This document shows positions 7,464-22,080 of a DNA stretch of 64,000 nucleotides, one piece after another. Position numbers and translations under genes: made by a program. Location of the stretch: contig JBFXCP010000010.1 in assembly GCA_050182055.1 (NCBI GenBank), positions 42,773-106,772 on the forward strand, in the 5' to 3' direction. The notes beneath the pieces were generated by a model. That model worked only from the letters and a program-made list of their open reading frames with translations, did no database searches and was not told the origin of the DNA. Numbering within the stretch: position 1 is the first letter of the stretch; every line of letters starts with the position of its first letter. The stretch comes from Hyphomonadaceae bacterium. GTDB lineage: Bacteria; Pseudomonadota; Alphaproteobacteria; Caulobacterales; Aquidulcibacteraceae.

Positions 7464-8384
7464 ATGGCCCGTGTGGCGGTGCTTCTTGGGGGCTTAAGCC
7501 CCGAACGGCCTGTGAGCTTGGTCTCCGGGCGCGGCTGCGCCGACGCACTGCGCCGGCTCGGGCACGACGTCGTTGAAATCGATCCGCAGGACGACGGCTG
7601 GATCGCCGCCCTGAAAGCCGCCCATCCCGACAAAGTGTTCAACGCGCTGCACGGCGAATGGGGCGAAGACGGGCGCACGCAGGGCGTGCTGGACTATCTG
7701 AAGCTGCCCTACACGCATTCCGGCATGCTCGCGTCGGCGATCGCCATGGACAAGGACAAGTCCAAGGCCGTGTTCGCGCAAGCCGGTTTGCCGCTGGCGA
7801 ATGGCAAGCTGATGAGCCGCTTCGAGGCGGCCAAGGCGCATCCAATGCCCGCGCCCTATGTGGTGAAGCCGAACGCGCAAGGCTCGTCGGTCGGCATCTT
7901 TATCGTGCGGGAAGGCGCCAACCGCCCGCCCGAACAATTGCTCGATCCGGATTGGACCTTCGGCGACGACGTGCTGGTCGAGGAATTCATCGACGGCAAG
8001 GAATTGACCGTCGCCGTGATGCACGATCGCGGCGCGCTCGCGGTCACGGAAATCTTCGTGACCAGCGACGGCGACTGGTATGACTTCGACGCCAAGTACG
8101 CTGCTGGCGGCTCGCGGCACGAGGTGCCGGCGAACATCCCGCCAAGCGTCGCCGAGCAGTGCATGCGCGCCGCAGAGGCGGCCCATCATGCGCTGGGCTG
8201 CCGCGGCGTGACGCGCAGCGACTTCCGCTACGACCCCAAGCGCGACCGCATCGCGCTTCTGGAAGTGAACACCCAGCCGGGCATGACGCCGACATCGCTC
8301 GTTCCGGAGCAGGCGGCGCACGCGGGCATGACCTACGACGAGTTGGTGGCGTGGATCCTGGAGGACGCGTCATGGCCTCGGTGA
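7464..8384 (+). CDS. ddl: D-alanine--D-alanine ligase
   Basis: 306 aa, ATP-grasp fold. [18 protein letters not shown]-like start and [14 protein letters not shown]-terminal motif. Confidence 0.95.
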
Positions 8385-9298
8385 GAGCACGTCGCAGTTC
8401 TGGAGGCGGCCGTGGCCGCCGGCACGCCCCCCCGCCCGGCCCCATGCCGCGGCTGGCGCACATCAAATTGAGCGGCGGCATCGCGGGCGGCGAGGTGAAG
8501 GTCTCCGGCCGCAGTCTCGCTTTGGCGTTGACGGGCGCGGTCTTCTTCCTGGGCGCGGGCATCGCCGGCGCCGCGTGGCTCGGTTCGTCACTGTTCGACG
8601 CGCGCGAAGCGCTCGCGCGCTCCGCCGACGCCGCCGCCGCGAAGATCGGCTTCAGCATCGGCGAAGTCGACGTCGCCGCGATGGCGAATGCGCCCGAGAT
8701 CACCGAGGCGCGCATGGCCGAAGTGCGCGCGCTGATCGTGCCCGAAGGGCGTCACTCAATCCTGTCGCTCGATCCCGACGACGTGAAGGCGCGCATCGAG
8801 AGCCTCGACTGGGTTGCGGAAGCGCGCGTGCGCCGGTTGTGGCCGTCGACGTTGCGGGTCGAAGTCGCGCGCCGTCAGGAATATGCGCTCTGGCAGGAGG
8901 GCGACCAGGTTTCTGTTATCGACGCCAACGGCGAACGCCTGCTGGCCGAGCGCGCCGCCGATCATCCGGACTTGCCGCGTGTCGTCGGCGCCGGCGCTGG
9001 GCCTGCCGCCGAGCCGCTGCTGATTGCGCTTGAAGATCTGCCGCAGCTGCGCGCGCGTTTGCGCCAGTTGGTGCGCGTGGGCGGCCGCCGCTGGAATGTC
9101 GAGCTGACGTCCGGCGCCACTGTGGCGCTGCCGGAACAGGGCGCGGTCGAAGCGCTCGCGCGGCTGGAAGCGTTGCAGGGCGAGTACGCGCTGCTCGACC
9201 GCCCGGTCGAAATGCTCGACATGCGCGCGCCGGGGCGTCTCGCGGTGCGCGTCCATCCCCAACTTGCGGGCGGTCCGCTGCTGGCCGGGGGCGTTTGA
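8372..9298 (+). CDS. ftsQ: cell division protein FtsQ
   Basis: Basic N-terminus, one TM ([22 protein letters not shown]), then POTRA/FtsQ-type region. Position is ddl-ftsQ-ftsA. Start chosen at ATG 8372 inside track ORF 8159..9298. Confidence 0.85.
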
Positions 9299-10614
9299 GC
9301 ATGGCGGCGCTCACGCACGCTCACACAGCGGAAGACGCAGCGCTGCTCGCGCCGCTGGTCGCGGCGCTCGATGTCGGCGTTTCGAAGACCGTGTGCCTTG
9401 CTGCGCGCCGCGATCCGGTGCTCGACATGCATCCGGACCGTCCGTTGCGCGTGCTCGGCGTCGGACAGCAGACCGCGCCGGCGATCGCATCGGGCAAGGC
9501 GGGGGATTTCGACGCCTGCGCGCGCGCGATCCAGGTGGCGATCGAAGAGGCGGCCGCCATGGCCGGCGCGCCGATTTCGCGTGTGGTCGCCAGCTATTCC
9601 GGTCCGGGTCTTAGTGCGCGCCTCGTGCGCGGCGCGGTGCGCGTGCGCGGCAACGCCATTTGTGCGCGCGACGTGGACGCGGCGATTGCGGCGGCGATGA
9701 AGGACGCGCCGACACCGCAACTCTCGTTCCTGCATGTCGAACCGCTCCGCTACATGATCGACGACGGCGAGGGCATCGCCGATCCGATCGGCCATCCTGG
9801 CAAGATGCTCGCGGTGGAGGCGTGCGTCGTCACCGCGCCGACTGAAGCGCTCAACGCGCTGAAGGCGTGCATTCGCCAAGCGGGGGCCGAGGTCGAAGAA
9901 ATCGTCGCGGCGCCGAAGGCGGCCGCGCTCTGTGCGCTCACCCAGCAGGAGCGCGAAGACGGCGCGCTGGTCATCGATCTCGGCGCCGGCTCGATCGGTC
10001 TTGCGGTGTTCGCAGGCGACATGCTGGTGCATGCGGAAACGCTCGCCGCTGGAGGCGTGCGCCTCACGCGCGATCTCGCCGTGAAGCTGCAGACGACCTT
10101 CGCCGCCGCGGAGCGCGTGAAAGTCGCATTCGGCGCGGTCGGCGACGCCTGCGATCCGCGTGAGCCGGTGCAGGCGCCGAGGCTCGGCCTCGATGGCCGG
10201 CTCGAAGCCGCCACGACCTTGCGCGGCGTCATCGCGGAGACTCTGACCCCGCGCTTGGCGGAAATGCTGTTGGCGGCGCGTCAGCAATTGGTGCGCGCCG
10301 GCTTTGTCGGCGAAGATGCCCCGCAGCGTGCCGTGCTCGTCGGCGGCGGAGCGCAGATTCCCGGTGTGCGCGAACTGGCGGCTGAAGCGCTTGGCATTCC
10401 CGTCCGGCTCGGCCGGCCGTTCGAACTCTGCGGCTTCGACCATGGCGAAGTTGGTCCGGCCTACGCCGCCGCCGCCGGCATGTTGCGCTGGCGGCTCGAC
10501 ACCCCGACGCTGGAGGATGTCGACACCTCCTTCCAGCCCACGCTCGCGCACGCGGCGGCTTCGCTGCGCAACGCCTGGCGCGGGACCTGGGGCTGGCTGC
10601 GCGAGAACTTCTGA
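9295..10614 (+). CDS. ftsA: cell division protein FtsA
   Basis: 439 aa, actin-like ATPase (ALDVGVSKTVCL, VIDLGAGSIGLAVF, VLVGGGAQIPGV). Start could be ATG 9301. Confidence 0.93.
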   Translation: MSMAALTHAHTAEDAALLAPLVAALDVGVSKTVCLAARRDPVLDMHPDRPLRVLGVGQQTAPAIASGKAGDFDACARAIQVAIEEAAAMAGAPISRVVASYSGPGLSARLVRGAVRVRGNAICARDVDAAIAAAMKDAPTPQLSFLHVEPLRYMIDDGEGIADPIGHPGKMLAVEACVVTAPTEALNALKACIRQAGAEVEEIVAAPKAAALCALTQQEREDGALVIDLGAGSIGLAVFAGDMLVHAETLAAGGVRLTRDLAVKLQTTFAAAERVKVAFGAVGDACDPREPVQAPRLGLDGRLEAATTLRGVIAETLTPRLAEMLLAARQQLVRAGFVGEDAPQRAVLVGGGAQIPGVRELAAEALGIPVRLGRPFELCGFDHGEVGPAYAAAAGMLRWRLDTPTLEDVDTSFQPTLAHAAASLRNAWRGTWGWLRENF

Positions 10615-10627
10615 GCGCTGCCGCGCG

Positions 10628-11170
10628 TCACCGGCATGTCACCGGATCGCCATCTCGCCACGGTTGCAGCGTCACCTCGTAAATCTCAATGCGGTCGATC
10701 ATGTACGGCCAGTGTTCGATGCCGCGCAGACCCGGTCGCACGAGGCACACGTCGGTCGCTTCCGTGCGGCCGCGCACGGTGATCAGCGCGCGATATGCGA
10801 ACGCGCGGTCGTAGCCATTTTCGATCGCCAGCAGCGTTTCGTTCTTGCCTGGGACTGGCATGAACCGGATGCGCACGACGCCGGACTGGACCGGCGCCGG
10901 CGGCGGATCGTCCGGGTGCGAGACCATCGGCGCGGCGGTGGGGCCGCTGGCCCAATCGTAGTCTCCCGAGCCCAGCTGCGCCGCCGTGCGCTGCTCAAGC
11001 GGGGTCAGCGCCCCGGCGGACGCACGTTCGATCACCTGCACGGCGCCGCCGTCGATCCGCGCCAAGACGCTTTCGCCCAGCCCAATGGTAACGCGGTGGC
11101 TCGCCGTCTCGGGTGCGGAGGCGCACGCGGCCAGGGTCCAAAGTGCGGCGGCGGCGAGGACGAAACGCAT
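10628..11170 (-). CDS. lipoprotein, unknown function, antisense between ftsA and ftsZ
   Basis: MRFVLAAAALWTLAACASA lipobox, 180 aa. It is only the 3' third of the 673-aa track ORF 10628..12649, whose remainder is antisense to ftsZ. Confidence 0.6.
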   Translation of the reverse strand: MRFVLAAAALWTLAACASAPETASHRVTIGLGESVLARIDGGAVQVIERASAGALTPLEQRTAAQLGSGDYDWASGPTAAPMVSHPDDPPPAPVQSGVVRIRFMPVPGKNETLLAIENGYDRAFAYRALITVRGRTEATDVCLVRPGLRGIEHWPYMIDRIEIYEVTLQPWRDGDPVTCR

Positions 11171-11382: not shown

Positions 11383-11452
11383 AGCGCGCCCGCCAGGGTG
11401 CGGTGCGAGCGTGGGCGAATCGTGCGACGCGGGATCGCCTCTGGAGCGGGCA

Positions 11453-12805
11453 ATGACCAACTACAGCGCGCCAACGATCAGCGACCTGAAACCGCGCATT
11501 GTGGTGTTCGGCGTCGGCGGCGCAGGCGGCAACGCCGTCAACAACATGATGGATGCGCGTCTGCAAGGCGTGGAATTCGTCGTCGCCAACACCGACGCGC
11601 AGGCGCTGACGCGCGCGAAGACCCCGAACCGTATCCAGCTCGGCCATTCCATCACCGAAGGCCTGGGCGCGGGCGCGCGCCCGGAAGTCGGCCATGCGGC
11701 GGCCCAGGAGAGCCAGCCGGAGATCATCGAATTCCTGGAAGGCGCGCACATGGTGTTCGTCGCCGCCGGTATGGGCGGCGGCACTGGCACGGGCGCCGCG
11801 CCGGTGATCGCGCGCACCGCCCGCGAGCGCGGCATCCTGACGATCGCGGTGGTGACCAAGCCGTTCCACTTCGAAGGCCAGCGCCGCATGCAGCTGGCGG
11901 AGGCGGGCGTGCAGGAATTGCGTAAGCACGTCGACACGCTCATCGTCATTCCGAACCAGAACCTCTTCCGCGTCGCCAATGAGCGCACCACGTTCGCCGA
12001 AGCCTTCCAGCTGGCCGACCAGGTGCTCTACTCGGGCGTGCGCGGCGTCACCGATCTGATGGTGATGCCGGGCCTGATCAATCTCGACTTCGCCGACGTC
12101 CGCACCGTGATGGCCGAGATGGGCACCGCGATGATGGGCACGGGCGAGGGCGCCGGCCCCAACCGCGCGCTCGAAGCCGCGCACGGCGCGATGGCCAATC
12201 CGCTGCTCGACATTGTCTCGATGCGCGGCGCCAAGGGCGTGCTGATCAACATCACCGGCGGCTTCGACATGACGTTGTACGAAGTCGATCAGGCCGCGAA
12301 CGAGGTTCGCGCCGAGGTCGATCCGCACGCCAACATCATCCTGGGCTCGACATTCGATGAGAGCCTCGAAGGCCGCATGCGGGTGTCGGTGGTCGCGACC
12401 GGCATCGACGACGAGGCCATCGTCACGCAGCAGACCGTGATCGAGCCCGCGCGCCGCGCTTCGGAAACGCCGGTGCGCCGTCCAGTGGTGCAGCCGCGTC
12501 CGCCGGCGGCGGCGCGCGAGCCCGAGCCGGCGCCGGCGCCGCGCGACACGTATGAAGAGCCGCGCCCAAGTTTCGCCAACGACGTCGAGCCGCCGCGCCG
12601 TTCGGGCGGCGGGTTCAATCTGTTCGGCTGGAAAAAGCCGGAGACGCACGACGGCGATGCATCGCTCGCGGATTTCGGCGTCGCAGAAGAAGCGGCGCCT
12701 GAGCCCGCCCCGGCGTCGCGCCGCGCCGAGGAGCCGCGCGATCCGTCGCTCGACGAAGAGCTGGAAATCCCTGCGTTCCTTCGCCGGCAGATGAACCCGC
12801 GCTAA
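11453..12805 (+). CDS. ftsZ: cell division protein FtsZ
   Basis: [15 protein letters not shown] and [13 protein letters not shown] tubulin signature. Long Pro/Glu-rich linker and C-terminal [13 protein letters not shown] peptide. Start at ATG 11453. Confidence 0.97.
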
Positions 12806-12815
12806 GGGCGATCCG

Positions 12816-13688
12816 TCAAACGCGAATGGCTTCCATCGCCTTGGTGGACGCGGTCAGCTCGCGATAGTGGCGATCGAAAGCGTCCGGCCCGCCGTCTCCC
12901 GCGATCTGCCTTGCCCAGCCTCTGCAGTCGTCGAGCCTGCGCTGCTCGTCGAACGTGGAGAGCGGCATTGCGTTGTTGTCGAACCACATCGACGTCTCCA
13001 GGTGGTCGCCCATGGTCTCGGCGGCTTCGCCGGTCATCAGCACGAGCGGATCGTTGGCGCCCGGGGCGCCGATCTTGTGCGTGCGTCCGAACACCAGCGC
13101 TTTCTTTCCGAAGCGAATGAAATTCGGGTACGTGAACAGCGCGGCTTCTTCGATCGGCGGCACGATGCGCAGCACATAGTCGCGACTGCCGTCGAAATAG
13201 AAGGCGTTGGCGGCGAGCGCGGCCAATCGCTGGACGTCGCGCGGCTGCTCGATGCGATGCAGCGTGATCTTGCCGGTGGAGATCGCCCTGCGAAGCTTAC
13301 CGTTGGCTTCTTTCGGAAAGCCGAAGCCCAGGCTCAGGGCGATCTTGGTTTCGAAGATCGGCGAAGCGCCAGCGTCGATGTAGTGACGCCACAGGTACTC
13401 GAGATCTTGCGCGTAGCGGCGTAGCGCAAACACCTCGCCGGCAGGAACGACGAAACGCTCCAGTTGACCCCAAGATGCAAAACCGAACTCTCTGCAGATG
13501 GTGCGGCGGCTCGTCTCCGTTATGTTGCCGCCGGACAGCCATTTTCGAATAGATGTCTCAGAAATGGTTGTTCTGTCGGCCAGGTTCCGCACCGAGAGTC
13601 TGAGGCGTGTGAGCAGACCCTCGATAATGATCGCCGTGCTCGGCTGCGATGAAATGCGCTTTGAAATTGGTTCGGGCGAGTGCGGCAT
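12816..13688 (-). CDS. HTH (XRE-like) domain protein with unknown ~220-aa C-terminal domain
   Basis: From MPHSPEPISK...: LRLSVRNLADRTTISETSIRKWLSGG helix-turn-helix. The 5' half of the gene is visibly AT-richer than its surroundings. The track ORF extends to 14120 across the divergent promoter, and that extension is rejected. Confidence 0.6.
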   Translation of the reverse strand: MPHSPEPISKRISSQPSTAIIIEGLLTRLRLSVRNLADRTTISETSIRKWLSGGNITETSRRTICREFGFASWGQLERFVVPAGEVFALRRYAQDLEYLWRHYIDAGASPIFETKIALSLGFGFPKEANGKLRRAISTGKITLHRIEQPRDVQRLAALAANAFYFDGSRDYVLRIVPPIEEAALFTYPNFIRFGKKALVFGRTHKIGAPGANDPLVLMTGEAAETMGDHLETSMWFDNNAMPLSTFDEQRRLDDCRGWARQIAGDGGPDAFDRHYRELTASTKAMEAIRV

Positions 13689-13874
13689 CGAAAGTGGCTT
13701 TCGGTTGTATACCGGTGTTGTCGCAGTGTGCCAGTAGTTTCGAAATGCAGTTAAATCCAATGTCCTCAGTGGAATAGAATGGTCCGACAGTACGGACAAC
13801 AGCGGCCTTGTCTGTGGGTTGTACAATATGCCGCCGTTCATTGTCCCGGCTATCGTGTGTCCCTGGAGGCGCAT

Positions 13875-15980
13875 ATGTCGGTGCATGAATTTCCACGACC
13901 GTCGCGGCCGGACACGCCCGTCAATCAAGAACGTTTCGCAACACAGCGCGCGCGGCTCGCGGACTACGATCTGCCCGGGCCTGCCCAAAACGAGCTGGCG
14001 CGGCGCGCGCCGGACTTTGGCGCGCTGGTGCGCCCGCGTCCGCTGTTGGAGGCGGTCGCGCAGATGGGCGCTGGCGAAACCGTCCGGATCGAGTTCCGCC
14101 GCGGCGACAAGGGCTGGCACATCGAATTGGCGGGCAGCCGGGCGGGCGCGCGAGCGAAGTCCGCGGCCGGTTTTTCGGCCCTCTTGAGCGCGGTGGCGCC
14201 GGGGGCCGAGTTCTGCAGCGATGCCGCGTCCCCGCCCAAGCGCTGCGCGTCGGTCGTTCGGTTGGCGCCGCGGCCCACGCAGGTGGAGGGAGCGGTGGAT
14301 GGCGCGCTTTGGCTGCCGCCCATGGGGTGGGGCGAGCCCGATCTTACACAGGCGCTGCGGATCGCGTTCGATCTCGGCGTGGAAACGCTGGCGTTCGAAC
14401 TCCGGCCTTTCCAGCTTGAGAGCGGCATGCGCGAACAGCTCGTGTCAGCCTCGTACCGGCTCGCCGAAAAAGGCAGCCCACACAACGAGGCGGCGCGCGA
14501 CTGCATCGCCACATGGCTCGGGGCGGGGTGCGGCTGCAGCGTCGGCGTCGAGGTCGCCTCCGCGCGCGCGTTGACCGAAGAAGGACTGAATGCACTCGCG
14601 CTCGCCTTGTTCGGCTGTACCCGCCATGCCGGCGCCGCGAAGGGCCTGGATTTGCGCATGGCGGTGCCGCTTGGCGCGCTGCCGGTTTGGCGCTTCTGGC
14701 CCACCTCCGGCGATCTACGCCGTTACGGCCGGCACAACGTCAAGATTGGCGCGGGATACGGCGCGCTCACTCTGGGCGTCGATGCAGCGGGGCGGTCTGT
14801 GCGCCTCGCCGCACGCGATCGCCCGTACCACGTTTTCGTGTGCGGCGTGGCGGGCTCGGGCAAGTCGACCCTGATTGGCAACTGCTGCCTCGAGGACATT
14901 AGGAATGGCGAGGGCATTCTGCTGATCGATCCGCACGGCGACCTGGCGCACAAAGTGCGCGCCGCCGTGCCGCGCAAGCGGCGGCGCGACGTGATCTGGA
15001 TCGATTTGGGCGATGAGACGCACGCGTGGCGCCTCGACCCGCTCCACACGCCAATGCGCCATCCTGACGCCGAGCGCGATCGCATCTCGAGCCAGCTGAT
15101 CAGCTATTTCCGTCAAATCTACGCTGGCGTGCCGGAGGCATTCGGGCCGTTGTTCGACAACGTCTTTCGAGGCGTCATGGCGTTGCTGCACTCGGCTAAG
15201 GAAGACGAGGATCGCACGCTGCTGAAGTTCAGAAAGGTGCTCGTCGACTCCCAGTTCCGGCGGAAGCTGCTGTCAGAGTGCACGGACAGCGACGTGGTCG
15301 AACTCTGGGACGAGATCCAGGAAGTCCACGGTGAGTGGTCGCTTGACAACATCTCACCGTACATCACTTGCAAGCTGAACCACCTGACGGGTCCAGGCAT
15401 GCGCCGCTTCATCGGCGGCGATAAGCCACGCCTCGATCTGCGCAAGGCCATGGACGAGCGCCGCATCGTCATCGTCAATCTCAACAAGGGTCAAATGAGC
15501 GACTTGGGCGCGCGTTTGGCGGGCGCGCTTGTTCTGATGGCGCTGAATGAAGCCGCGATGGGGCGCAGCGACATACCGGAAGATCAGCGCGTGCCGTTTC
15601 GCGTCTATTGCGACGAGTTCCAGACCATGGCCTCGGATCAGGCGGCGATCGCGCTCGCCGAGTGCCGCAAGTTCAACATCTCGTTGATGCTGGCCAACCA
15701 GAATCTCGCGCAATTGCGCGGGGGCTGGCAGGGGCCGACCGATGTCAGCCAGACGGTGCTCGCCAACTGCAACTCGCTGATCGCGTTGCGCACCGGCATC
15801 CATGACGCGCAGATTCTGGCGCCGTTGCTGGGGCTGGAGGACCACCGCGCCTTGGTGGACCTGAGTGTAGGCGAGATGATCGTCCGGCGGCTTGTCTTGG
15901 GCGTTCCTGGGTCTGCGCAGCGACTCTACGGGCTGCCGCCGGTGGCCCCGCCGCCGAAGCGCACCGCCAACGATCCGTGA
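13875..15980 (+). CDS. soluble TraD/VirD4/HerA-like (FtsK-HerA superfamily) P-loop ATPase with unknown N-terminal domain
   Basis: GGAGG lies 5 nt upstream of ATG 13875. 701 aa. Walker A is VCGVAGSGKST (nt 14844-14870), followed by LLIDPHGDL, and Walker B is FRVYCDEFQ (D580/E581, nt 15612-15617). RKFNISLMLANQNLAQL is a TraG/TraD C-terminal-like motif. No TM segments. Residues 1-320 are unassigned. Confidence 0.75.
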   Translation: MSVHEFPRPSRPDTPVNQERFATQRARLADYDLPGPAQNELARRAPDFGALVRPRPLLEAVAQMGAGETVRIEFRRGDKGWHIELAGSRAGARAKSAAGFSALLSAVAPGAEFCSDAASPPKRCASVVRLAPRPTQVEGAVDGALWLPPMGWGEPDLTQALRIAFDLGVETLAFELRPFQLESGMREQLVSASYRLAEKGSPHNEAARDCIATWLGAGCGCSVGVEVASARALTEEGLNALALALFGCTRHAGAAKGLDLRMAVPLGALPVWRFWPTSGDLRRYGRHNVKIGAGYGALTLGVDAAGRSVRLAARDRPYHVFVCGVAGSGKSTLIGNCCLEDIRNGEGILLIDPHGDLAHKVRAAVPRKRRRDVIWIDLGDETHAWRLDPLHTPMRHPDAERDRISSQLISYFRQIYAGVPEAFGPLFDNVFRGVMALLHSAKEDEDRTLLKFRKVLVDSQFRRKLLSECTDSDVVELWDEIQEVHGEWSLDNISPYITCKLNHLTGPGMRRFIGGDKPRLDLRKAMDERRIVIVNLNKGQMSDLGARLAGALVLMALNEAAMGRSDIPEDQRVPFRVYCDEFQTMASDQAAIALAECRKFNISLMLANQNLAQLRGGWQGPTDVSQTVLANCNSLIALRTGIHDAQILAPLLGLEDHRALVDLSVGEMIVRRLVLGVPGSAQRLYGLPPVAPPPKRTANDP

Positions 15981-15983
15981 GTC

Positions 15984-17702
15984 TCACCCGCCCCAGAGCT
16001 TCTTGCGGAGCTCGGCTTCCGCCGTGGTCATGACGCCGGCCTTCGCAAGCTCGTCGAACTTCGCGAGCGCGCTGACGCGGTAGTGCTCGGCGTCCACGCC
16101 GCCAAGGCCGGCGAGATGCGATTCCACGATGGCGCAGAAGCGAAGGCCGTCGACGTCGTCGTGCGCGAAGATGCGGTCGGCGAGCGCCAACTCGTCTTCC
16201 CAGGCGCCGCGCGCGGCCGCGACGTCGCCGCAAGCGCGGGCGGCGATGCCGACGCGCTCAAGTGCGGCGGCGAGCGCGTGCGCGGCGCGCGCGTCGTTCG
16301 GTGCGGCGGCGACGAGGTCGAGTCGCAACGCCACGCTTTCGTGAAACGCAGCGCGCGCGGAGGCGTTGGCGCTTGCTTCGAGTTCGGCCTCGCCGAGTTT
16401 GACCAACGCCGCCGCAAGACCGCGCGCGAAGCGCACGTTGTCCGGCGCGCGCTCGCGCGCCATGCGGCGGAACTCCACCGCGCGAGCGAAGCCGTCTTGC
16501 GCTTGCGCCGGCGCGCGCGCGAGGCGCGCAACTTCGCCAAGCCGATCCCAGCAGGCGCCGATGTCGCCGAACCAGGCCGGGTGCGCGCCCGGTTTCCGCG
16601 CGAAGCGCTCGCATGCCGCGCGCGCCGTATCGGCTGCCTCGCGCGCGGCGGCGGCGTCCTTGCAGCGCAGCGCGAGGTCCGCCTGATCGAGCAGGGTATG
16701 CACCCAGAACCGAAGGGGGGCCTCCTCGTCCGGCGTTTGCCTCAGCAGCGTCTCGACAATCGCGCGCGCCTGCACGAGTGAGTCCGCCGCCGTAGCGTGA
16801 TCCTGCAGCGCTTCCAGCAGAGCGGCGCGGACGCGCCATGCCCCCGCGAGCGCCCACGCCTCCTGCGGATGGCTGGCGGCGAGGCGCACCCGGGCTTGCA
16901 GCGCCTTGTCCATCGCGGCGCGCGCGCGCTGCGGTTCCTCGCGGGCGAGTTCCGCTTCTGCCATCAGCGCCCACGCATCGGAGAGCACGGCCCGCCAGTG
17001 CGGCTCGGTTTTTTCTGTCGCTGCGAGCGCCTCGTAGCGGCCGATGGCTTCGCGCAAGCGGCGCGTGGCGGAGGCCGGTTGATCCGCGTCCAGTTCCATC
17101 GCGCCCAGGCGCATCTCTGCGTCGGCGATGTCGGCGGCGAGCACGGGCGTTTCGCCGATCTGCGCTGCGGCCGCACGCAACAGCGCGAGCGCGCCTTCGG
17201 CGCCGGCGCGCGCACGCGCGAATTCGCCATTGCGCGCGTCGAGTTCCGCAAGGCGCCCGCGCGCGCGGGCGAACCAACGCGCGGCGGTGACGTCCGTGCG
17301 GTCGCTGGCGAGCAACGTGTCCTCGATGCGGAGCGTGGTCGCGTAGGCGTCGCGTGCGGTGGTCATGTCGCCCTCGACGCGCGCCATTTCACCCAGCATG
17401 AACGCCGCGCGCGCCCGGGCGCGCGGGTCGGTGCTGTCGGCGAACACTGCTCGCGCTTCCGCACGCGCGGCAGCCAGGTCGCCGTTCTCGGCGTGGAGGC
17501 GGGCGAGCGCCAGTTTCGGCGCCGGATCGGCCGGTTCGAGCCTGGCGGCGATGGCCAGCGCTTCGCGGGCCAGGGCTGGGTCCTTCCGCTCGGCCAGCAC
17601 CGCCGCCCGTTTCGCGGCCAGCGCCGCCTTCGGCCCGCCAGTTTTTGCAAGCGCGAGAAGCGCCTGCGGATCGGGCGGCGGGGGAGGAATATTTTGGCCC
17701 AT
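15984..17702 (-). CDS. TPR-like all-alpha repeat protein (572 aa)
   Basis: Ala/Arg/Leu-rich helical repeats throughout (…ALAIAARLEPADPAPKLALARLHAENGDLAAARAEA…). No signal peptide. Its stop is 3 nt from the stop of the ATPase gene. Confidence 0.7.
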   Translation of the reverse strand: MGQNIPPPPPDPQALLALAKTGGPKAALAAKRAAVLAERKDPALAREALAIAARLEPADPAPKLALARLHAENGDLAAARAEARAVFADSTDPRARARAAFMLGEMARVEGDMTTARDAYATTLRIEDTLLASDRTDVTAARWFARARGRLAELDARNGEFARARAGAEGALALLRAAAAQIGETPVLAADIADAEMRLGAMELDADQPASATRRLREAIGRYEALAATEKTEPHWRAVLSDAWALMAEAELAREEPQRARAAMDKALQARVRLAASHPQEAWALAGAWRVRAALLEALQDHATAADSLVQARAIVETLLRQTPDEEAPLRFWVHTLLDQADLALRCKDAAAAREAADTARAACERFARKPGAHPAWFGDIGACWDRLGEVARLARAPAQAQDGFARAVEFRRMARERAPDNVRFARGLAAALVKLGEAELEASANASARAAFHESVALRLDLVAAAPNDARAAHALAAALERVGIAARACGDVAAARGAWEDELALADRIFAHDDVDGLRFCAIVESHLAGLGGVDAEHYRVSALAKFDELAKAGVMTTAEAELRKKLWGG

Positions 17703-17832: not shown

Positions 17833-18762
17833 GTGAAGTCGTTGCGTCGTCAGCAGACTATTGCGGGCCCGGCCATGTGCGCCGGGATTGGCGTCCATTC
17901 CGGGGCGCATGTGCGCATGGCGCTGACGCCCGCGCCAGTGAATACCGGCATCGTGTTCGTCCGCAGCGACATGCGCGGGGGCGACAACGCCATCCGCGCG
18001 CATGCGGATTCGATCTCAGAAACCCGCAATTGCACCACGATCGCCAACGCCTACGGCGCCGAACTGGCGACGGTTGAGCACCTGATGTCGGCATGCGCCG
18101 GGCTTGGCGTCGACAATCTGCTGGTCGAGGTGGACGGCCCGGAATTGCCGATCCTCGACGGCTCATCCGCCCAGTTCGTGCAGGTGCTCCTCAACGCCGG
18201 GATCAAGGCGCAGCACGCCGAACAGCGCATGATCCGCGTTCTGGAGCCGATCGAAGTGCGCATGGGCGCCAAGAGCGCCGCGTTGCTGCCCGCCACCGAT
18301 TTCGACGGCCTCGACCTCGACGTCACCATTCGCTTCGCCGACCCCGCGATCGGCGTGCAGCGCCGGCGGGTGCGGCTGACGCCGCAGACGTTCCTCACCG
18401 AAATCGCCGACGCGCGCACGTTCGGTTTCCTGGCCGACGCCGACGCCATGCGCGCCGCCGGGCTTGGTCTCGGCGCGTCGATGGACAACGCCATCGTGGT
18501 GGACTCGGGCCGGGTGGTGAATCCGGACGGGCTTCGCTTCGACGACGAATTCGTCCGGCACAAAATGCTCGACGCGATCGGCGACCTGGCTATGGCCGGT
18601 GCGCCCATTTGTGGCCGCTTTGTGGCGGACCAGCCGGGCCACGCCCTCAACGCGCGCCTCGTCCGCGCCTTGCTGGATACGCCGGAAGCTTGGTGCTGGG
18701 AGCCTGCTATCGAGGTCGAAACGGTCCGCGAAGCCGTCCCCGCCTTGGCCGCCGCCCGCTGA
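17833..18762 (+). CDS. lpxC: UDP-3-O-acyl-N-acetylglucosamine deacetylase
   Basis: 309 aa. GIGVHSG, TVEHLMSA and HKMLDAIGDLAMAG motifs. Confidence 0.95.
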   Translation: MKSLRRQQTIAGPAMCAGIGVHSGAHVRMALTPAPVNTGIVFVRSDMRGGDNAIRAHADSISETRNCTTIANAYGAELATVEHLMSACAGLGVDNLLVEVDGPELPILDGSSAQFVQVLLNAGIKAQHAEQRMIRVLEPIEVRMGAKSAALLPATDFDGLDLDVTIRFADPAIGVQRRRVRLTPQTFLTEIADARTFGFLADADAMRAAGLGLGASMDNAIVVDSGRVVNPDGLRFDDEFVRHKMLDAIGDLAMAGAPICGRFVADQPGHALNARLVRALLDTPEAWCWEPAIEVETVREAVPALAAAR

Positions 18763-18878: not shown

Positions 18879-19727
18879 ATGACCCTCCGACACCTGAATC
18901 CAGCGCGTGGGCTGGCCTTGGCGTTGCTGGCGGCGGGCCTTGGCGCCTGCGGCGGCGTCACCGATCGCGAGCGGGTGCAGTATTCGGACGAACCGGTCGC
19001 GCGCATCTACAATCGCGGCGCCGACAATCTCGACCGCCGCCGCTGGGAGCAAGCGCTGGGCGCGTTCGAGGAGGTCGAACGCCAGCACCCGTACTCGTCG
19101 TGGGCGCGCCGCGCGATGATCATGGAAGCGTACGCGCACTATATGGCCAACCAGTACGATGAGGCCATCGAGGACGCGCAGCGCTTCATCGCCTTGCACC
19201 CGGGCAACGAGAGCGCGCCGTACGCCTACTACCTGGTCGCGATGTGCCACTTCGAGCGCATCCTCGACGTGGGCCGCGACCAAGGCACCACCGAGCGTGC
19301 GCTCGCGGCGTTGACCGATGTCGTGCGCCGCTTTCCGGATTCGCCCTACGCGCGCGACGCACGGCTGAAGATCGACATGGTCTACGACCAGCTCGCCGGC
19401 AAGGAGATGTCGGTCGGCCGTTTCTATCTCGAGCGCGACCAGCATCTCGCCGCCATCAACCGCTTCCGCAATGTGATCGAGGACGAGCACTTCCAGCGCA
19501 CGTCGCACGTGCCGGAAGCGCTGCACCGTTTGGTCGAATCCTATCTGTCTGTCGGCATGAGCGAGGAAGCCCAGCGCATGGCGGCGATCCTCGGGCACAA
19601 TTTCCCAGGCAGCGAGTGGTACCAACGCTCGTATGCGCTGATGACAGACAGCGGCGTCGCGCCGGTCGCCGAGGACGAAGCCCGCCGCCGCGGCTGGTTG
19701 CGCCGCACGTTCGGCACGGTGTTCTAA
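18879..19727 (+). CDS. bamD: outer membrane protein assembly factor BamD
   Basis: Lipobox LLAAGLGAC. TPR-like YfiO pattern (YNRGADNLDRRRWEQALGAFEEVERQHPYSSWA). Confidence 0.9.
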   Translation: MTLRHLNPARGLALALLAAGLGACGGVTDRERVQYSDEPVARIYNRGADNLDRRRWEQALGAFEEVERQHPYSSWARRAMIMEAYAHYMANQYDEAIEDAQRFIALHPGNESAPYAYYLVAMCHFERILDVGRDQGTTERALAALTDVVRRFPDSPYARDARLKIDMVYDQLAGKEMSVGRFYLERDQHLAAINRFRNVIEDEHFQRTSHVPEALHRLVESYLSVGMSEEAQRMAAILGHNFPGSEWYQRSYALMTDSGVAPVAEDEARRRGWLRRTFGTVF

Positions 19728-19740
19728 GCTCCCTCGGTAA

Positions 19741-22080
<2,340 letters not shown>

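What the first reader, a model, noticed from the sequence alone, without database searches (positions are those of the whole stretch)
12816..17702. Three-gene insertion between ftsZ and lpxC: HTH protein, soluble TraD/HerA-like ATPase with a novel N-terminal domain, and a large TPR protein
Seen in sequence:
- 12816..13688 (-) encodes an XRE-like HTH plus an unknown ~220-aa domain. It has noticeably lower GC in its 5' half.
- Divergently, 13875..15980 (+) has a strong GGAGG RBS and encodes 701 aa.
- The last ~380 aa carry Walker A GVAGSGKST, LLIDPHGDL, Walker B FRVYCDEFQ and RKFNISLMLANQNLAQL. This is a coupling-protein / FtsK-HerA-type ATPase, but it has no TM helices.
- The first ~320 aa match nothing I recognise.
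- 15984..17702 (-) is a 572-aa TPR-like protein whose stop lies 3 nt from the ATPase stop.
Established knowledge: in many alphaproteobacteria ftsZ is followed directly by lpxC-bamD. HerA/FtsK-type ATPases and TPR sensors are recurrent parts of anti-phage systems. No relaxase, integrase, T4SS or tRNA gene accompanies the ATPase, so it is not an obvious ICE. Inference: a candidate stand-alone conflict or defence module, or a division-linked DNA pump, inserted in the dcw neighbourhood.
Basis: partly seen in the sequence, partly recalled or inferred. Interest (0 to 1): 0.72.

Follow-up and report, generated by a model that had tools for sequence, protein, structure and literature searches.

The report
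Two-gene cargo beside ftsZ, not three
Between the division gene ftsZ and lpxC there is a rare, mobile two-gene module (a DNA-binding protein with a nuclease-like fold plus a soluble DNA-pump-type ATPase) of untested, possibly defensive function, while the third "TPR" gene is an ordinary core gene of this bacterial group.

Summary
The "three-gene insertion" reading is wrong.

Gene C (572 aa, TPR-like) lies upstream of lpxC in all 64 related Terricaulis/Vitreimonas genomes that can be assessed, so it is a vertical core gene. Genes A and B are a separate two-gene cargo. They occur in only 1 of 53 species-representative genomes at this junction, which elsewhere is empty or holds unrelated genes.

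The divergent A+B pair recurs in two other genomic contexts and is under purifying selection.
- **B:** a soluble ATPase related to type IV coupling proteins (T4CP), TrwB/TraD-like, with intact Walker motifs. Its 295-aa N-domain is very rare (50 clusters among 1.84 billion representatives) and has no fold match.
- **A:** an XRE-type HTH plus a phospholipase-D-like fold with only a degenerate HKD motif.

No relaxase, type IV secretion system (T4SS), integrase, tRNA or flanking repeats accompany the pair, and it matches no known defence system beyond a generic ATPase hit (mad8).

My best reading is inferred, not shown: a conflict-type ATPase-plus-partner module. A division role is unlikely.

The parts
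12816..13688 (-). Gene A, 290 aa: an XRE-type HTH followed by a PLD-like-fold domain. It is the partner of B and is transcribed divergently from it.
   Evidence: - ORF.
- Only 11 homologue clusters among 5.8 billion proteins.
- AF2 model with pLDDT 82.
- dN/dS of 0.10 against L095.
13449..13688 (-). N-terminal region of A (aa 1-80), holding the Cro/C1-type helix-turn-helix. This is the fastest-evolving part of A and has lower GC.
   Evidence: - Family members hit HTH_31, HTH_3 and HTH_26 (best 3e-6).
- Foldseek hits to C.BclI, C.AhdI and ClgR.
- GC 0.569 and GC3 0.647.
- 46-52% identity, against 65-71% for the C-domain.
12816..13448 (-). C-terminal domain of A (aa 81-290) with a phospholipase-D-like fold. 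It carries a conserved but non-canonical H204-K205...D213-x6-G220 motif.
   Evidence: - Foldseek against PDB: PLD, PLD3, NucT, Nuc, Zucchini, FAM83 and TrmBL2, E = 3e-5 to 5e-3, probability 1.0.
- The alignment shows the invariant residues.
- No Pfam PLD hit.
13689..13874 (.). The 186-bp divergent A/B control region. It has the lowest GC in the locus and includes the GGAGG ribosome-binding site of B.
   Evidence: - GC 0.516.
- Sequence.
- Partly conserved blocks among W, L001, L004 and L091.
- The sigma-70 consensus scan found nothing.
13875..14759 (+). N-terminal domain of B (aa 1-295): soluble alpha/beta, with no known relative by sequence or fold.
   Evidence: - An HMM search of 1.84 billion representatives found 50 clusters, mostly proteins of about 700 aa with the domain at the N terminus; about ten are shorter.
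- AF2 model with pTM 0.70 and pLDDT 66.
- Foldseek found no hit with E < 0.001 in PDB or BFVD.
14760..15980 (+). T4CP-like ATPase of B (aa 296-701). Walker A is at 14844-14870 and Walker B at 15597-15623. An all-alpha insert lies between them, and the LANQ sensor motif is present.
   Evidence: - Pfam TraG-D_C scores 32.5 bits (cut-off 22) and TrwB_AAD_bind 23.8 (cut-off 20.5).
- Best PDB sequence matches are TrwB (7e-8) and DotL.
- PADLOC mad8, 3e-16.
- phrog_5156, 8e-30.
- Motif positions.
15984..17702 (-). Gene C, 572 aa, Ala-rich and TPR-like. It is NOT part of the module. It is a flanking core gene of the clade, convergent with ftsZ where the junction is empty.
   Evidence: - Present upstream of lpxC in all 64 related loci that extend far enough.
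- At least 268 homologue clusters.
- dN/dS of 0.12.
11411..12805 (+). ftsZ, the left flank of the variable junction. Its stop codon is 10 nt from the stop of A.
   Evidence: ORF; Tubulin/FtsZ_C annotation of the orthologues; junction sequences.

Best explanation
**Shown**
- The locus is a two-gene accessory module, A plus B. It sits in a variable junction between the 3' end of ftsZ and a clade-core TPR-like gene, C.
- The junction is empty in about half of related species. In many others it carries unrelated small cargos.
- A and B are kept as a divergent pair in at least three different genomic contexts. Both are under purifying selection.
- B is a soluble member of the coupling-protein (TrwB/TraD/VirD4) branch of the FtsK-HerA ATPases. 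It has intact catalytic motifs and a family-specific N-terminal domain.
- A joins an XRE-type HTH to a PLD-like fold.

**Inferred**
- The pair works as a self-contained conflict-type module directed against mobile elements or phages.
- A binds the shared 186-bp control region and keeps both genes autoregulated.
- A also supplies DNA targeting or sensing through its fast-evolving HTH, and possibly a phosphodiesterase or ligand-binding activity through the PLD-like domain.
- B assembles as a ring ATPase that translocates or captures DNA. Its fast-evolving N-domain acts as the specificity or partner-binding part.
- The module was probably acquired early in this clade, or exchanged within it by recombination through the conserved flanks, and was then lost repeatedly.
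For: **Cargo status**
- Of 53 species-representative loci that hold both ftsZ and C, 25 have less than 40 bp between the two stop codons.
- About 22 hold 0.5-2.8 kb of unrelated genes, and only L030 holds A+B.
- In L091 the junction holds A+B plus the 251-aa and DUF2541 genes that occur alone in L048.
- Carriers are scattered in a neighbour-joining (NJ) tree of LpxC+BamD+LigA+C.

**Pairing**
- Divergent A-like and B-like genes occur in L085 (53% and 51% identity; neighbours are a thioesterase, an acyl-CoA dehydrogenase and a TIR protein).
- They also occur in L088 (48% and 45% identity; neighbours are PIN and GIY-YIG genes).

**Selection**
- dN/dS is 0.10 for A and 0.21 for B against L095.
- The B N-domain and the A HTH evolve fastest.

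**Domains**
- See for B.
- See for A.
- See for the B N-domain.

**Conflict-type neighbourhoods of B relatives**
- Type III CRISPR-Cas (L006/L112).
- CHAT and TPR proteins on a Bradyrhizobium plasmid.
- A conserved Uma2 nuclease-fold partner in L109/L114/L127.
- A large operon of unknowns with weak methyltransferase/mad2 and DO-GTPase2 hits.

**Precedent from the literature**
- HerA/FtsK ATPases recur with DNA-binding domains and nucleases in predicted 'capture' systems (PMC10853773, PMC12839542).
- They also recur in tested HerA two-gene systems (PMC11291478, PMC11514289).
Against: - No function has been tested.
- PADLOC gives nothing for A or C, and only a generic ATPase match for B.
- The other cargos in this same junction are membrane, metabolic and lipoprotein genes, not defence genes. 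The site itself therefore says nothing about defence.
- A lacks a canonical HxK(x)4D(x)6GSxN motif: the spacing is different, S and N are absent, and H204 is N in one homologue. It may be only a regulator, as in the TrmB family.
- GC3 of B and of the A C-domain equals that of the host.
- Divergence of A and B tracks that of the vertical gene C. This points to long residence, not recent mobility.
- More distant B relatives (45% identity or less) have other partners, and none of 80 metagenome loci has an A-like gene.
- No A relative occurs on viral contigs.
Confidence: 0.5

Rival explanations
1. Domesticated remnant of a mobile element. B is a coupling-protein gene and A its repressor, left from a decayed integrative, mobilisable or plasmid element. 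They now serve no defence function, or only help an element encoded elsewhere in the genome to transfer.
For: - The best curated matches of B are to TraD/TrwB/VirD4-type profiles.
- Relatives at 25-35% identity lie on plasmids of Bradyrhizobium, Sulfitobacter, Streptomyces and haloarchaea.
- An XRE repressor next to transfer genes is common (established knowledge).
Against: - NCBIfam TraD scores are far below the cut-offs (46.9 against 366).
- B has no membrane anchor.
- No relaxase, T4SS, integrase, tRNA or flanking repeats were found in any of the contexts seen.
- Both genes are under purifying selection and are kept as a pair across 45-93% identity.
- Most plasmid hits are on records typed non-mobilizable.
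Confidence: 0.2
2. A host-beneficial accessory function that is not defence. A is a ligand-responsive transcription factor, with an HTH plus a PLD-like sensor domain as in TrmB regulators. It controls B, which acts in DNA repair or end processing or another ATP-driven task.
For: - TrmBL2 is among the structural matches of A.
- The HKD motif is degenerate.
- The divergent arrangement with a shared control region is typical of a regulator and its target.
- HerA-NurA is a repair machine (PMC12977600).
- Phage relatives of the ATPase lie in replication and recombination modules.
Against: - The distribution is extremely sparse and patchy: 11 clusters for A, about 50 clusters for the B N-domain, and 1 of 53 related species.
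- B relatives have conflict-type neighbours.
Confidence: 0.2
3. A division-linked DNA pump or dcw-cluster regulator. A+B acts with FtsZ in chromosome clearance or division control.
For: - A+B sits directly after ftsZ in at least five genomes.
- An A-family gene also lies in the murB-ddl junction of a related dcw cluster.
- FtsK is a relative of B.
Against: - A+B is absent from 52 of 53 related species, in which ftsZ abuts C.
- A+B occurs outside dcw clusters in L085 and L088.
- The junctions of this dcw cluster hold many unrelated cargos.
- A and B are transcribed on their own, convergent with ftsZ and C.
Confidence: 0.05
4. A three-gene system as first proposed, with the TPR protein C as sensor of the A+B module.
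For: - The stop codons of B and C are 3 nt apart in the window and in L001 and L095.
- TPR proteins are frequent in conflict systems (established knowledge).
Against: - C is present in 64 of 64 assessable relatives, with or without A+B.
- C has at least 268 homologue clusters, against 11 for A.
- In L091 two other genes separate B from C.
- In L004 the spacer is 66 bp.
- No C-like gene lies near A+B in L085 or L088.
Confidence: 0.03

Closest known systems
Type IV coupling proteins (TrwB, TraD, VirD4, DotL)
   Same: - A nucleotide-binding domain of the FtsK-HerA type, with Walker A and B motifs.
- An all-alpha insert between the Walker motifs.
- A TraG-D_C region.
- Both Pfam hits are above their gathering scores.
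- TrwB and DotL are the best solved relatives by sequence.
   Different: - No N-terminal membrane anchor; a soluble 295-aa domain of unknown fold takes its place.
- No relaxase or T4SS nearby.
- NCBIfam TraD models are far below their cut-offs.
- Paired instead with an HTH/PLD-like protein.
HerA-based two-gene defence systems (SIR2-HerA, DUF4297-HerA) and the predicted HerA/FtsK 'capture' systems
   Same: - A ring ATPase of the same superfamily.
- Encoded next to a partner with an effector-type (nuclease-like) fold and DNA-binding domains.
- Sparse, patchy distribution (PMC11291478, PMC11514289, PMC10853773).
   Different: - B belongs to the coupling-protein branch, not to HerA proper (HerA_antiphage scores 14.9 bits against a cut-off of 800).
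- No HAS-barrel was detected.
- The partner is neither SIR2 nor DUF4297.
- The genes are divergent, not in one operon.
- No activity has been tested.
MAD8 of the MADS defence system
   Same: The best PADLOC match of B is mad8, at 3e-16 over most of the profile. mad8 is required for MADS defence (bioRxiv 10.1101/2023.03.30.534895).
   Different: - MADS is an eight-gene operon whose detection needs mad6, mad7 and mad8. None of the other components is present here.
- The mad profiles were built from HHpred alignments against PDB, so the hit reflects the generic ATPase fold.
TrmB-family regulators and single-HKD PLD nucleases (Nuc, NucT, Zucchini, BfiI)
   Same: - A DNA-binding domain joined to a PLD-like fold.
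- Foldseek recovers both TrmBL2 and the nucleases.
   Different: - The HTH of A is of the XRE type, not winged.
- There is no sequence-level PLD match.
- The HKD motif is non-canonical.

Membership tests
Type IV coupling protein (VirD4/TraD/TrwB) | FtsK-HerA-type nucleotide-binding domain with Walker A and Walker B motifs | tested here: met
   GVAGSGKST at aa 324 and VYCDEFQ at aa 577. Pfam TraG-D_C scores 32.5 bits against a cut-off of 22. TrwB is the best PDB sequence match at 7e-8.
Type IV coupling protein (VirD4/TraD/TrwB) | All-alpha domain inserted in the nucleotide-binding domain | tested here: met
   Pfam TrwB_AAD_bind matches aa 314-659 to profile positions 12-330 of 387, at 23.8 bits against a cut-off of 20.5. 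This is sequence evidence only; no full-length model was made.
Type IV coupling protein (VirD4/TraD/TrwB) | N-terminal transmembrane anchor | tested here: not met
   The maximum Kyte-Doolittle mean over a 19-residue window is 1.41. The N-domain model is soluble alpha/beta.
Type IV coupling protein (VirD4/TraD/TrwB) | Genetic linkage to a relaxase and/or T4SS mating-pair genes | tested here: not met
   Neighbours within about 8 kb are dcw genes, lpxC, bamD and ligA. None is seen in L085 or L088. The rest of the genome was not available.
Anti-phage HerA | Match to curated HerA models and a HAS-barrel N-domain | tested here: not met
   NCBIfam HerA_antiphage scores 14.9 bits against a cut-off of 800. 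PADLOC HerA profiles reach at best 2.2e-7, over about 50 residues. The N-domain has no significant fold match.
MADS defence system | Co-occurrence of mad6, mad7 and mad8, which are mandatory in the authors' model | tested here: not met
   Only a mad8-like hit was found. A and C give no mad hit below 0.05, and the flanking genes are housekeeping. The model definition comes from the paper.
Phospholipase D (HKD) superfamily, for the A C-domain | PLD fold | tested here: met
   The top Foldseek PDB hits are all PLD-superfamily or PLD-like proteins, with E = 3e-5 to 5e-4 and probability 1.0. TM-score normalised to the target is 0.5-0.6 for single-domain targets. The model has pLDDT 82.
Phospholipase D (HKD) superfamily, for the A C-domain | Catalytic HxK(x)4D(x)6G(S/G)xN motif | tested here: inconclusive
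   A conserved T-H204-K205-x7-D213-x6-G220-x-A-A motif is present. D-x6-G fits. H and K are adjacent, the H-to-D spacing is longer, S and N are missing, and H204 is N in P0070. No Pfam PLDc hit was found.
XRE/Cro-C1 HTH regulators, for the A N-terminus | Helix-turn-helix of the Cro/C1 type | tested here: met
   HTH_31 is only 0.09 in the window protein. Six of 12 family members hit HTH_31 or HTH_3 (best 3e-6). Fold matches include C.BclI, C.AhdI and ClgR.
Integrative genomic island | Integrase or recombinase, tRNA target, flanking direct repeats | tested here: not met
   No tRNA. No bounding repeats. Filled and empty sites were compared. No recombinase appears in the annotated relatives.
TPR proteins, for gene C | Recognisable TPR repeats | tested here: inconclusive
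   TPR_16 scores 22 bits against a cut-off of 32.7. Some homologues carry precomputed TPR Pfam hits, and sources name them TPR or MalT-like TPR proteins.

The most novel reading that the evidence does not exclude
A+B is a previously undescribed minimal two-gene system against mobile elements or phages.
- A soluble coupling-protein-like ring ATPase uses a new N-terminal domain to recognise or be recruited to invading DNA.
- It then hands that DNA to, or is licensed by, an HTH protein that carries a divergent PLD-type phosphodiesterase domain.
- Other branches of the same ATPase family use other opposite-strand partners of about 320 aa, including a Uma2 nuclease-fold protein. Together these would form a modular family of 'T4CP-like capture' systems.
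Probability: 0.25. Interest if true: 0.65.

Novelty: new variant of a known kind. Interest (0 to 1): 0.45.

Why it matters
If the inferred function holds, coupling-protein-type ATPases would join HerA as motors of small defence modules. These ATPases are normally thought of as conjugation parts. The finding would also give a function to a very rare N-terminal domain and to an HTH-PLD-like architecture.

Independently of function, the ftsZ-lpxC stretch of the Terricaulis/Vitreimonas group contains two things of interest:
- a clade-specific core gene of unknown role (C);
- a junction, inside the otherwise conserved division cluster, that accumulates unrelated cargo with no visible integration machinery.

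The finding is of moderate interest. There is no direct evidence of function, and the most striking part of the original claim, a three-gene insertion, does not hold.

Tried and rejected
- **Genome scan with B alone.** A scan of genome contigs with the single B protein found nothing.
- **A-like partners of distant B relatives.** I tested whether the partners are cryptic A homologues.
  - L006 (327 aa), L094 (313 aa) and L098 (290 aa) against the A profile: all negative by BLASTP or hhalign.
  - The 331-aa partner of the B-less A homologue in L082, against B: negative.
- **A second C.** The 511-aa gene convergent with B in L098 looked like one because it also has a 3-nt spacing. It is unrelated to C, and by my reading of its sequence resembles a glycine dehydrogenase subunit.
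- **B N-domain.** Searches against PDB and BFVD gave no significant match. The two top viral hits are Bacillus-phage proteins of 800-900 aa, one of them annotated like a phage relative of the ATPase domain, at E about 0.07, which is only suggestive.
- **PDB sequence search with the A profile.** It gave only weak HTH hits.
- **MADS membership.** Rejected; only the generic ATPase matches.
- **Integration signatures.** Flanking repeats, att sites, promoters and terminators gave nothing above chance.
- **Viral origin.** There are no A relatives on viral contigs. B has only ATPase-domain relatives there, at 26-31% identity.
- **Compositional foreignness.** Rejected for the coding parts: GC3 equals that of the host except in the HTH region of A.
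Full report
**1. What is in the sequence**

The window carries a division and cell-wall (dcw) gene cluster followed by envelope and ligase genes:

| Feature | Coordinates | Strand |
|---|---|---|
| ddl | 7464-8384 | + |
| ftsQ | not delimited | + |
| ftsA | 9295-10614 | + |
| 180-aa lipoprotein ORF | 10628-11170 | - |
| ftsZ | 11411-12805 | + |
| gene A | 12816-13688 | - |
| gene B | 13875-15980 | + |
| gene C | 15984-17702 | - |
| lpxC | 17833-18762 | + |
| bamD | 18879-19727 | + |
| ligA | 19750-22080 | + |

- A GGAGG ribosome-binding site lies 7 nt upstream of the ATG of B.
- The four quoted motifs of B sit at residues 324, 349, 575 and 598.
- B has no hydrophobic segment long enough to be a transmembrane helix.
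- The stop codons of B and C are 3 nt apart.
- The 5' part of A and the A-B spacer have lower GC (0.57 and 0.52, against 0.67 for the window).
- The window holds no tRNA gene.

**2. The three genes are not one unit**

B has very few close relatives: 93, 71, 62 and 60% identity. In the contigs that encode the 71% and 60% relatives, the order is the same as in the window: ftsZ, A, B, C, lpxC, bamD, ligA.

To see the junction in relatives with and without the genes, I anchored a scan of one genome per species on LpxC. This returned 74 loci, all from Terricaulis, Vitreimonas and 'Hyphomonadaceae' metagenome-assembled genomes of the order Caulobacterales. I then searched those loci with the window proteins by tblastn.
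- **Gene C:** it lies immediately upstream of lpxC in all 64 loci that extend far enough. Identity is 52-69% in most and falls to 35-40% in the most distant.
- **Genes A and B:** of the 53 loci that hold both ftsZ and C, only L030 has them.
- **Empty junctions:** in 25 loci the ftsZ and C stop codons are less than 40 bp apart.
- **Other cargo:** about 22 loci carry 0.5-2.8 kb of unrelated genes between ftsZ and C. These include small membrane proteins, an Asp/Glu-racemase-like gene, lipoproteins, dehydrogenases and a sulfhydrylase-like gene.
- **Stacked cargo:** in L091 the junction holds A and B plus a 251-aa gene and a DUF2541 gene. Those two genes occur alone in L048.

C has at least 268 homologue clusters, some from named isolates such as Vitreimonas flagellata and Candidatus Viadribacter manganicus. 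A has 11 clusters.

C is therefore a vertically inherited core gene of this group. A plus B is a discrete two-gene cargo in a variable junction.

**3. A and B belong together**

A-family genes are rare, and most of them sit divergently next to a B-family gene.
- Besides the ftsZ junction (window, L095, L004, L091, L001), the pair occurs in L085. There A is 53% and B 51% identical, and the neighbours are a thioesterase, an acyl-CoA dehydrogenase and a TIR-domain protein.
- It also occurs in L088. There A is 48% and B 45% identical, and the neighbours are PIN and GIY-YIG genes.
- There is one exception. In L082/L083 an A homologue lies in the murB-ddl junction of a related dcw cluster. It is divergent from an unrelated 331-aa gene and has no B.

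Both genes are under purifying selection. Against the close relative L095, dN/dS is 0.10 for A and 0.21 for B. For comparison it is 0.12 for C, 0.08 for ligA and 0.01 for lpxC.

In more distant pairs the N-domain of B and the HTH region of A are the fastest-evolving parts. dS is near saturation in those pairs, so the values are rough.

**4. History at this site**

- Carriers are not each other's nearest neighbours in a neighbour-joining (NJ) tree of LpxC+BamD+LigA+C. For example, L001/L030 is sister to L033, which lacks the pair. The tree is only a distance tree with short internal branches.
- Pairwise identities of A (63-69%) and B (61-71%) are in the range of the vertical but fast-evolving C (59-67%). 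They follow roughly the same ranking as LigA.
- GC3 of B and of the A C-domain equals that of host genes.
- The boundaries are tight: 0-10 nt to ftsZ and 3-66 nt to C. They differ between genomes and show no repeats.
- No recombinase gene is nearby.

I infer long residence in the clade with repeated loss, or exchange between relatives by recombination through the conserved flanks. The data do not separate these two.

**5. What the proteins are**

*B, residues 296-701*
- It is a member of the coupling-protein branch of the FtsK-HerA ATPases.
- Pfam TraG-D_C and TrwB_AAD_bind both pass their gathering scores.
- The best solved relatives by sequence are TrwB and DotL.
- NCBIfam TraD and HerA models score far below their cut-offs.
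- The best PADLOC match is mad8 of the MADS system (3e-16). The mad profiles were built from HHpred alignments against PDB, and a MADS call needs mad6 and mad7, which are absent.
- A phage family of unknown function, phrog_5156, matches at 8e-30. In Bacillus phage PBC5 that gene lies in the early replication and recombination region.

*B, residues 1-295*
- A profile search of 1.84 billion representative proteins found only 50 clusters. Most are proteins of about 700 aa with this domain at the N terminus; about ten are shorter.
- The AlphaFold model has moderate confidence (pTM 0.70, pLDDT 66).
- It has no significant match in PDB or in predicted viral structures.

*A*
- The model is better (pLDDT 82).
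- The N terminus is a Cro/C1-type HTH.
- Residues 81-290 adopt a phospholipase-D-like fold. The top structural matches are PLD, PLD3, NucT, Nuc, Zucchini, the pseudo-enzyme FAM83 and the regulator TrmBL2.
- The family conserves T-H-K-x7-D-x6-G-x-A-A. This resembles the HKD motif but does not fulfil it. The domain may be a divergent phosphodiesterase or a non-catalytic binding domain.

**6. Context of more distant B relatives**

Below about 45% identity the A partner disappears. None of 80 metagenome loci has one. Other partners and neighbourhoods appear instead:
- A conserved 314-327-aa gene on the opposite strand in L006/L112/L102, next to type III CRISPR-Cas genes in L006/L112.
- A conserved 344-aa protein with a Uma2 nuclease-fold domain in L109/L114/L127 (5e-25).
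- A 313-aa convergent gene between CHAT and TPR proteins on a Bradyrhizobium plasmid.
- An operon of at least eight unknown genes in L005/L007.

These neighbourhoods look like conflict systems, but this is circumstantial. The ftsZ junction itself is not a defence hotspot.

**7. Interpretation**

*Shown*
- A+B is a rare, selected, two-gene accessory module in a variable junction.
- C is core.
- There is no sign of conjugation or integration machinery.

*Inferred, with about even odds*
- The module is of the conflict type: a ring ATPase plus a DNA-binding protein with a nuclease-like fold.
- This is comparable in logic to the HerA two-gene systems and to the predicted HerA/FtsK capture systems (PMC11291478, PMC11514289, PMC10853773, PMC12839542).
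- A also autoregulates the divergent promoters.

*Rivals*
- A domesticated remnant of a transfer element.
- A ligand-controlled accessory ATPase, for repair or another task.
- A division-linked role, which is much less likely.

The module is not a member of the T4CP, anti-phage HerA or MADS families in the strict sense, because defining features were tested and not met. I file it as a new variant of the ATPase-plus-effector kind. Interest is moderate, because nothing about function is demonstrated and the original three-gene claim fails.

Noticed in passing
window 15984-17702 (-): Gene C is a clade-specific core gene of the Terricaulis/Vitreimonas/Viadribacter group. It always lies divergently upstream of lpxC and convergent with ftsZ. 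It is Ala-rich and TPR-like, has no predicted membrane segment, and shows dN/dS of 0.12. Its function is unknown. Its fixed place between ftsZ and lpxC may point to a division or envelope role.
   Followed up: partly
ftsZ/C junction in L008-L081 (e.g. L010 7569-8149, L044 5854-6546, L053 5591-8150, L080 5352-8140): The junction between the convergent ftsZ and C genes carries many unrelated small cargos in different species. They include membrane proteins, a racemase-like gene, lipoproteins, dehydrogenases, and 251-aa plus DUF2541 genes. No integrase or repeats are present. This is a variable spot inside an otherwise conserved division cluster.
   Followed up: partly
window 10628-11170 (-); ftsA-ftsZ spacers in L012, L015, L021, L029: A 180-aa lipoprotein-like ORF lies between ftsA and ftsZ in the window. 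The ftsA-ftsZ spacer ranges from about 0.1 to about 4 kb among relatives, so this junction is variable too.
   Followed up: no
L082 6575-8693 (and L083, L084): An A-family gene (48% identity) without B lies in the murB-ddl junction of a related dcw cluster. It is divergent from an unrelated 331-aa gene and sits next to a dual-specificity phosphatase and a histidine kinase. This is a second dcw junction carrying an A-family gene.
   Followed up: partly
L005 4940-18169; L007 1533-16457: A B-family ATPase (34-39% identity) is embedded in a conserved co-directional operon of at least eight proteins with no family assignment. The only hits are a weak methyltransferase/mad2 match, a weak DO-GTPase2 match and a weak TPR match. 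This may be a large uncharacterised conflict system.
   Followed up: partly
L109 2612-3181; L114 11764-11994; L127 10654-11688: Another branch of the B family has a conserved convergent neighbour carrying a Uma2 (PD-(D/E)XK nuclease-fold) domain. This parallels the nuclease-like fold of A.
   Followed up: partly
L006 1-7758; L112: A B-family ATPase with its own 327-aa divergent partner lies directly beside type III CRISPR-Cas genes (Cas10/Cmr2 and RAMP proteins), next to the cytochrome bc1 operon.
   Followed up: no
L177 3819-6047 (Bacillus phage PBC5 gp050); Bacillus phage G gp156: Phage proteins of 740-900 aa in family phrog_5156 share the ATPase domain of B. They may also share a similar N-terminal region (Foldseek E about 0.07). 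In PBC5 the gene lies among recombination and replication genes and is mis-annotated as a lipid A export protein.
   Followed up: partly
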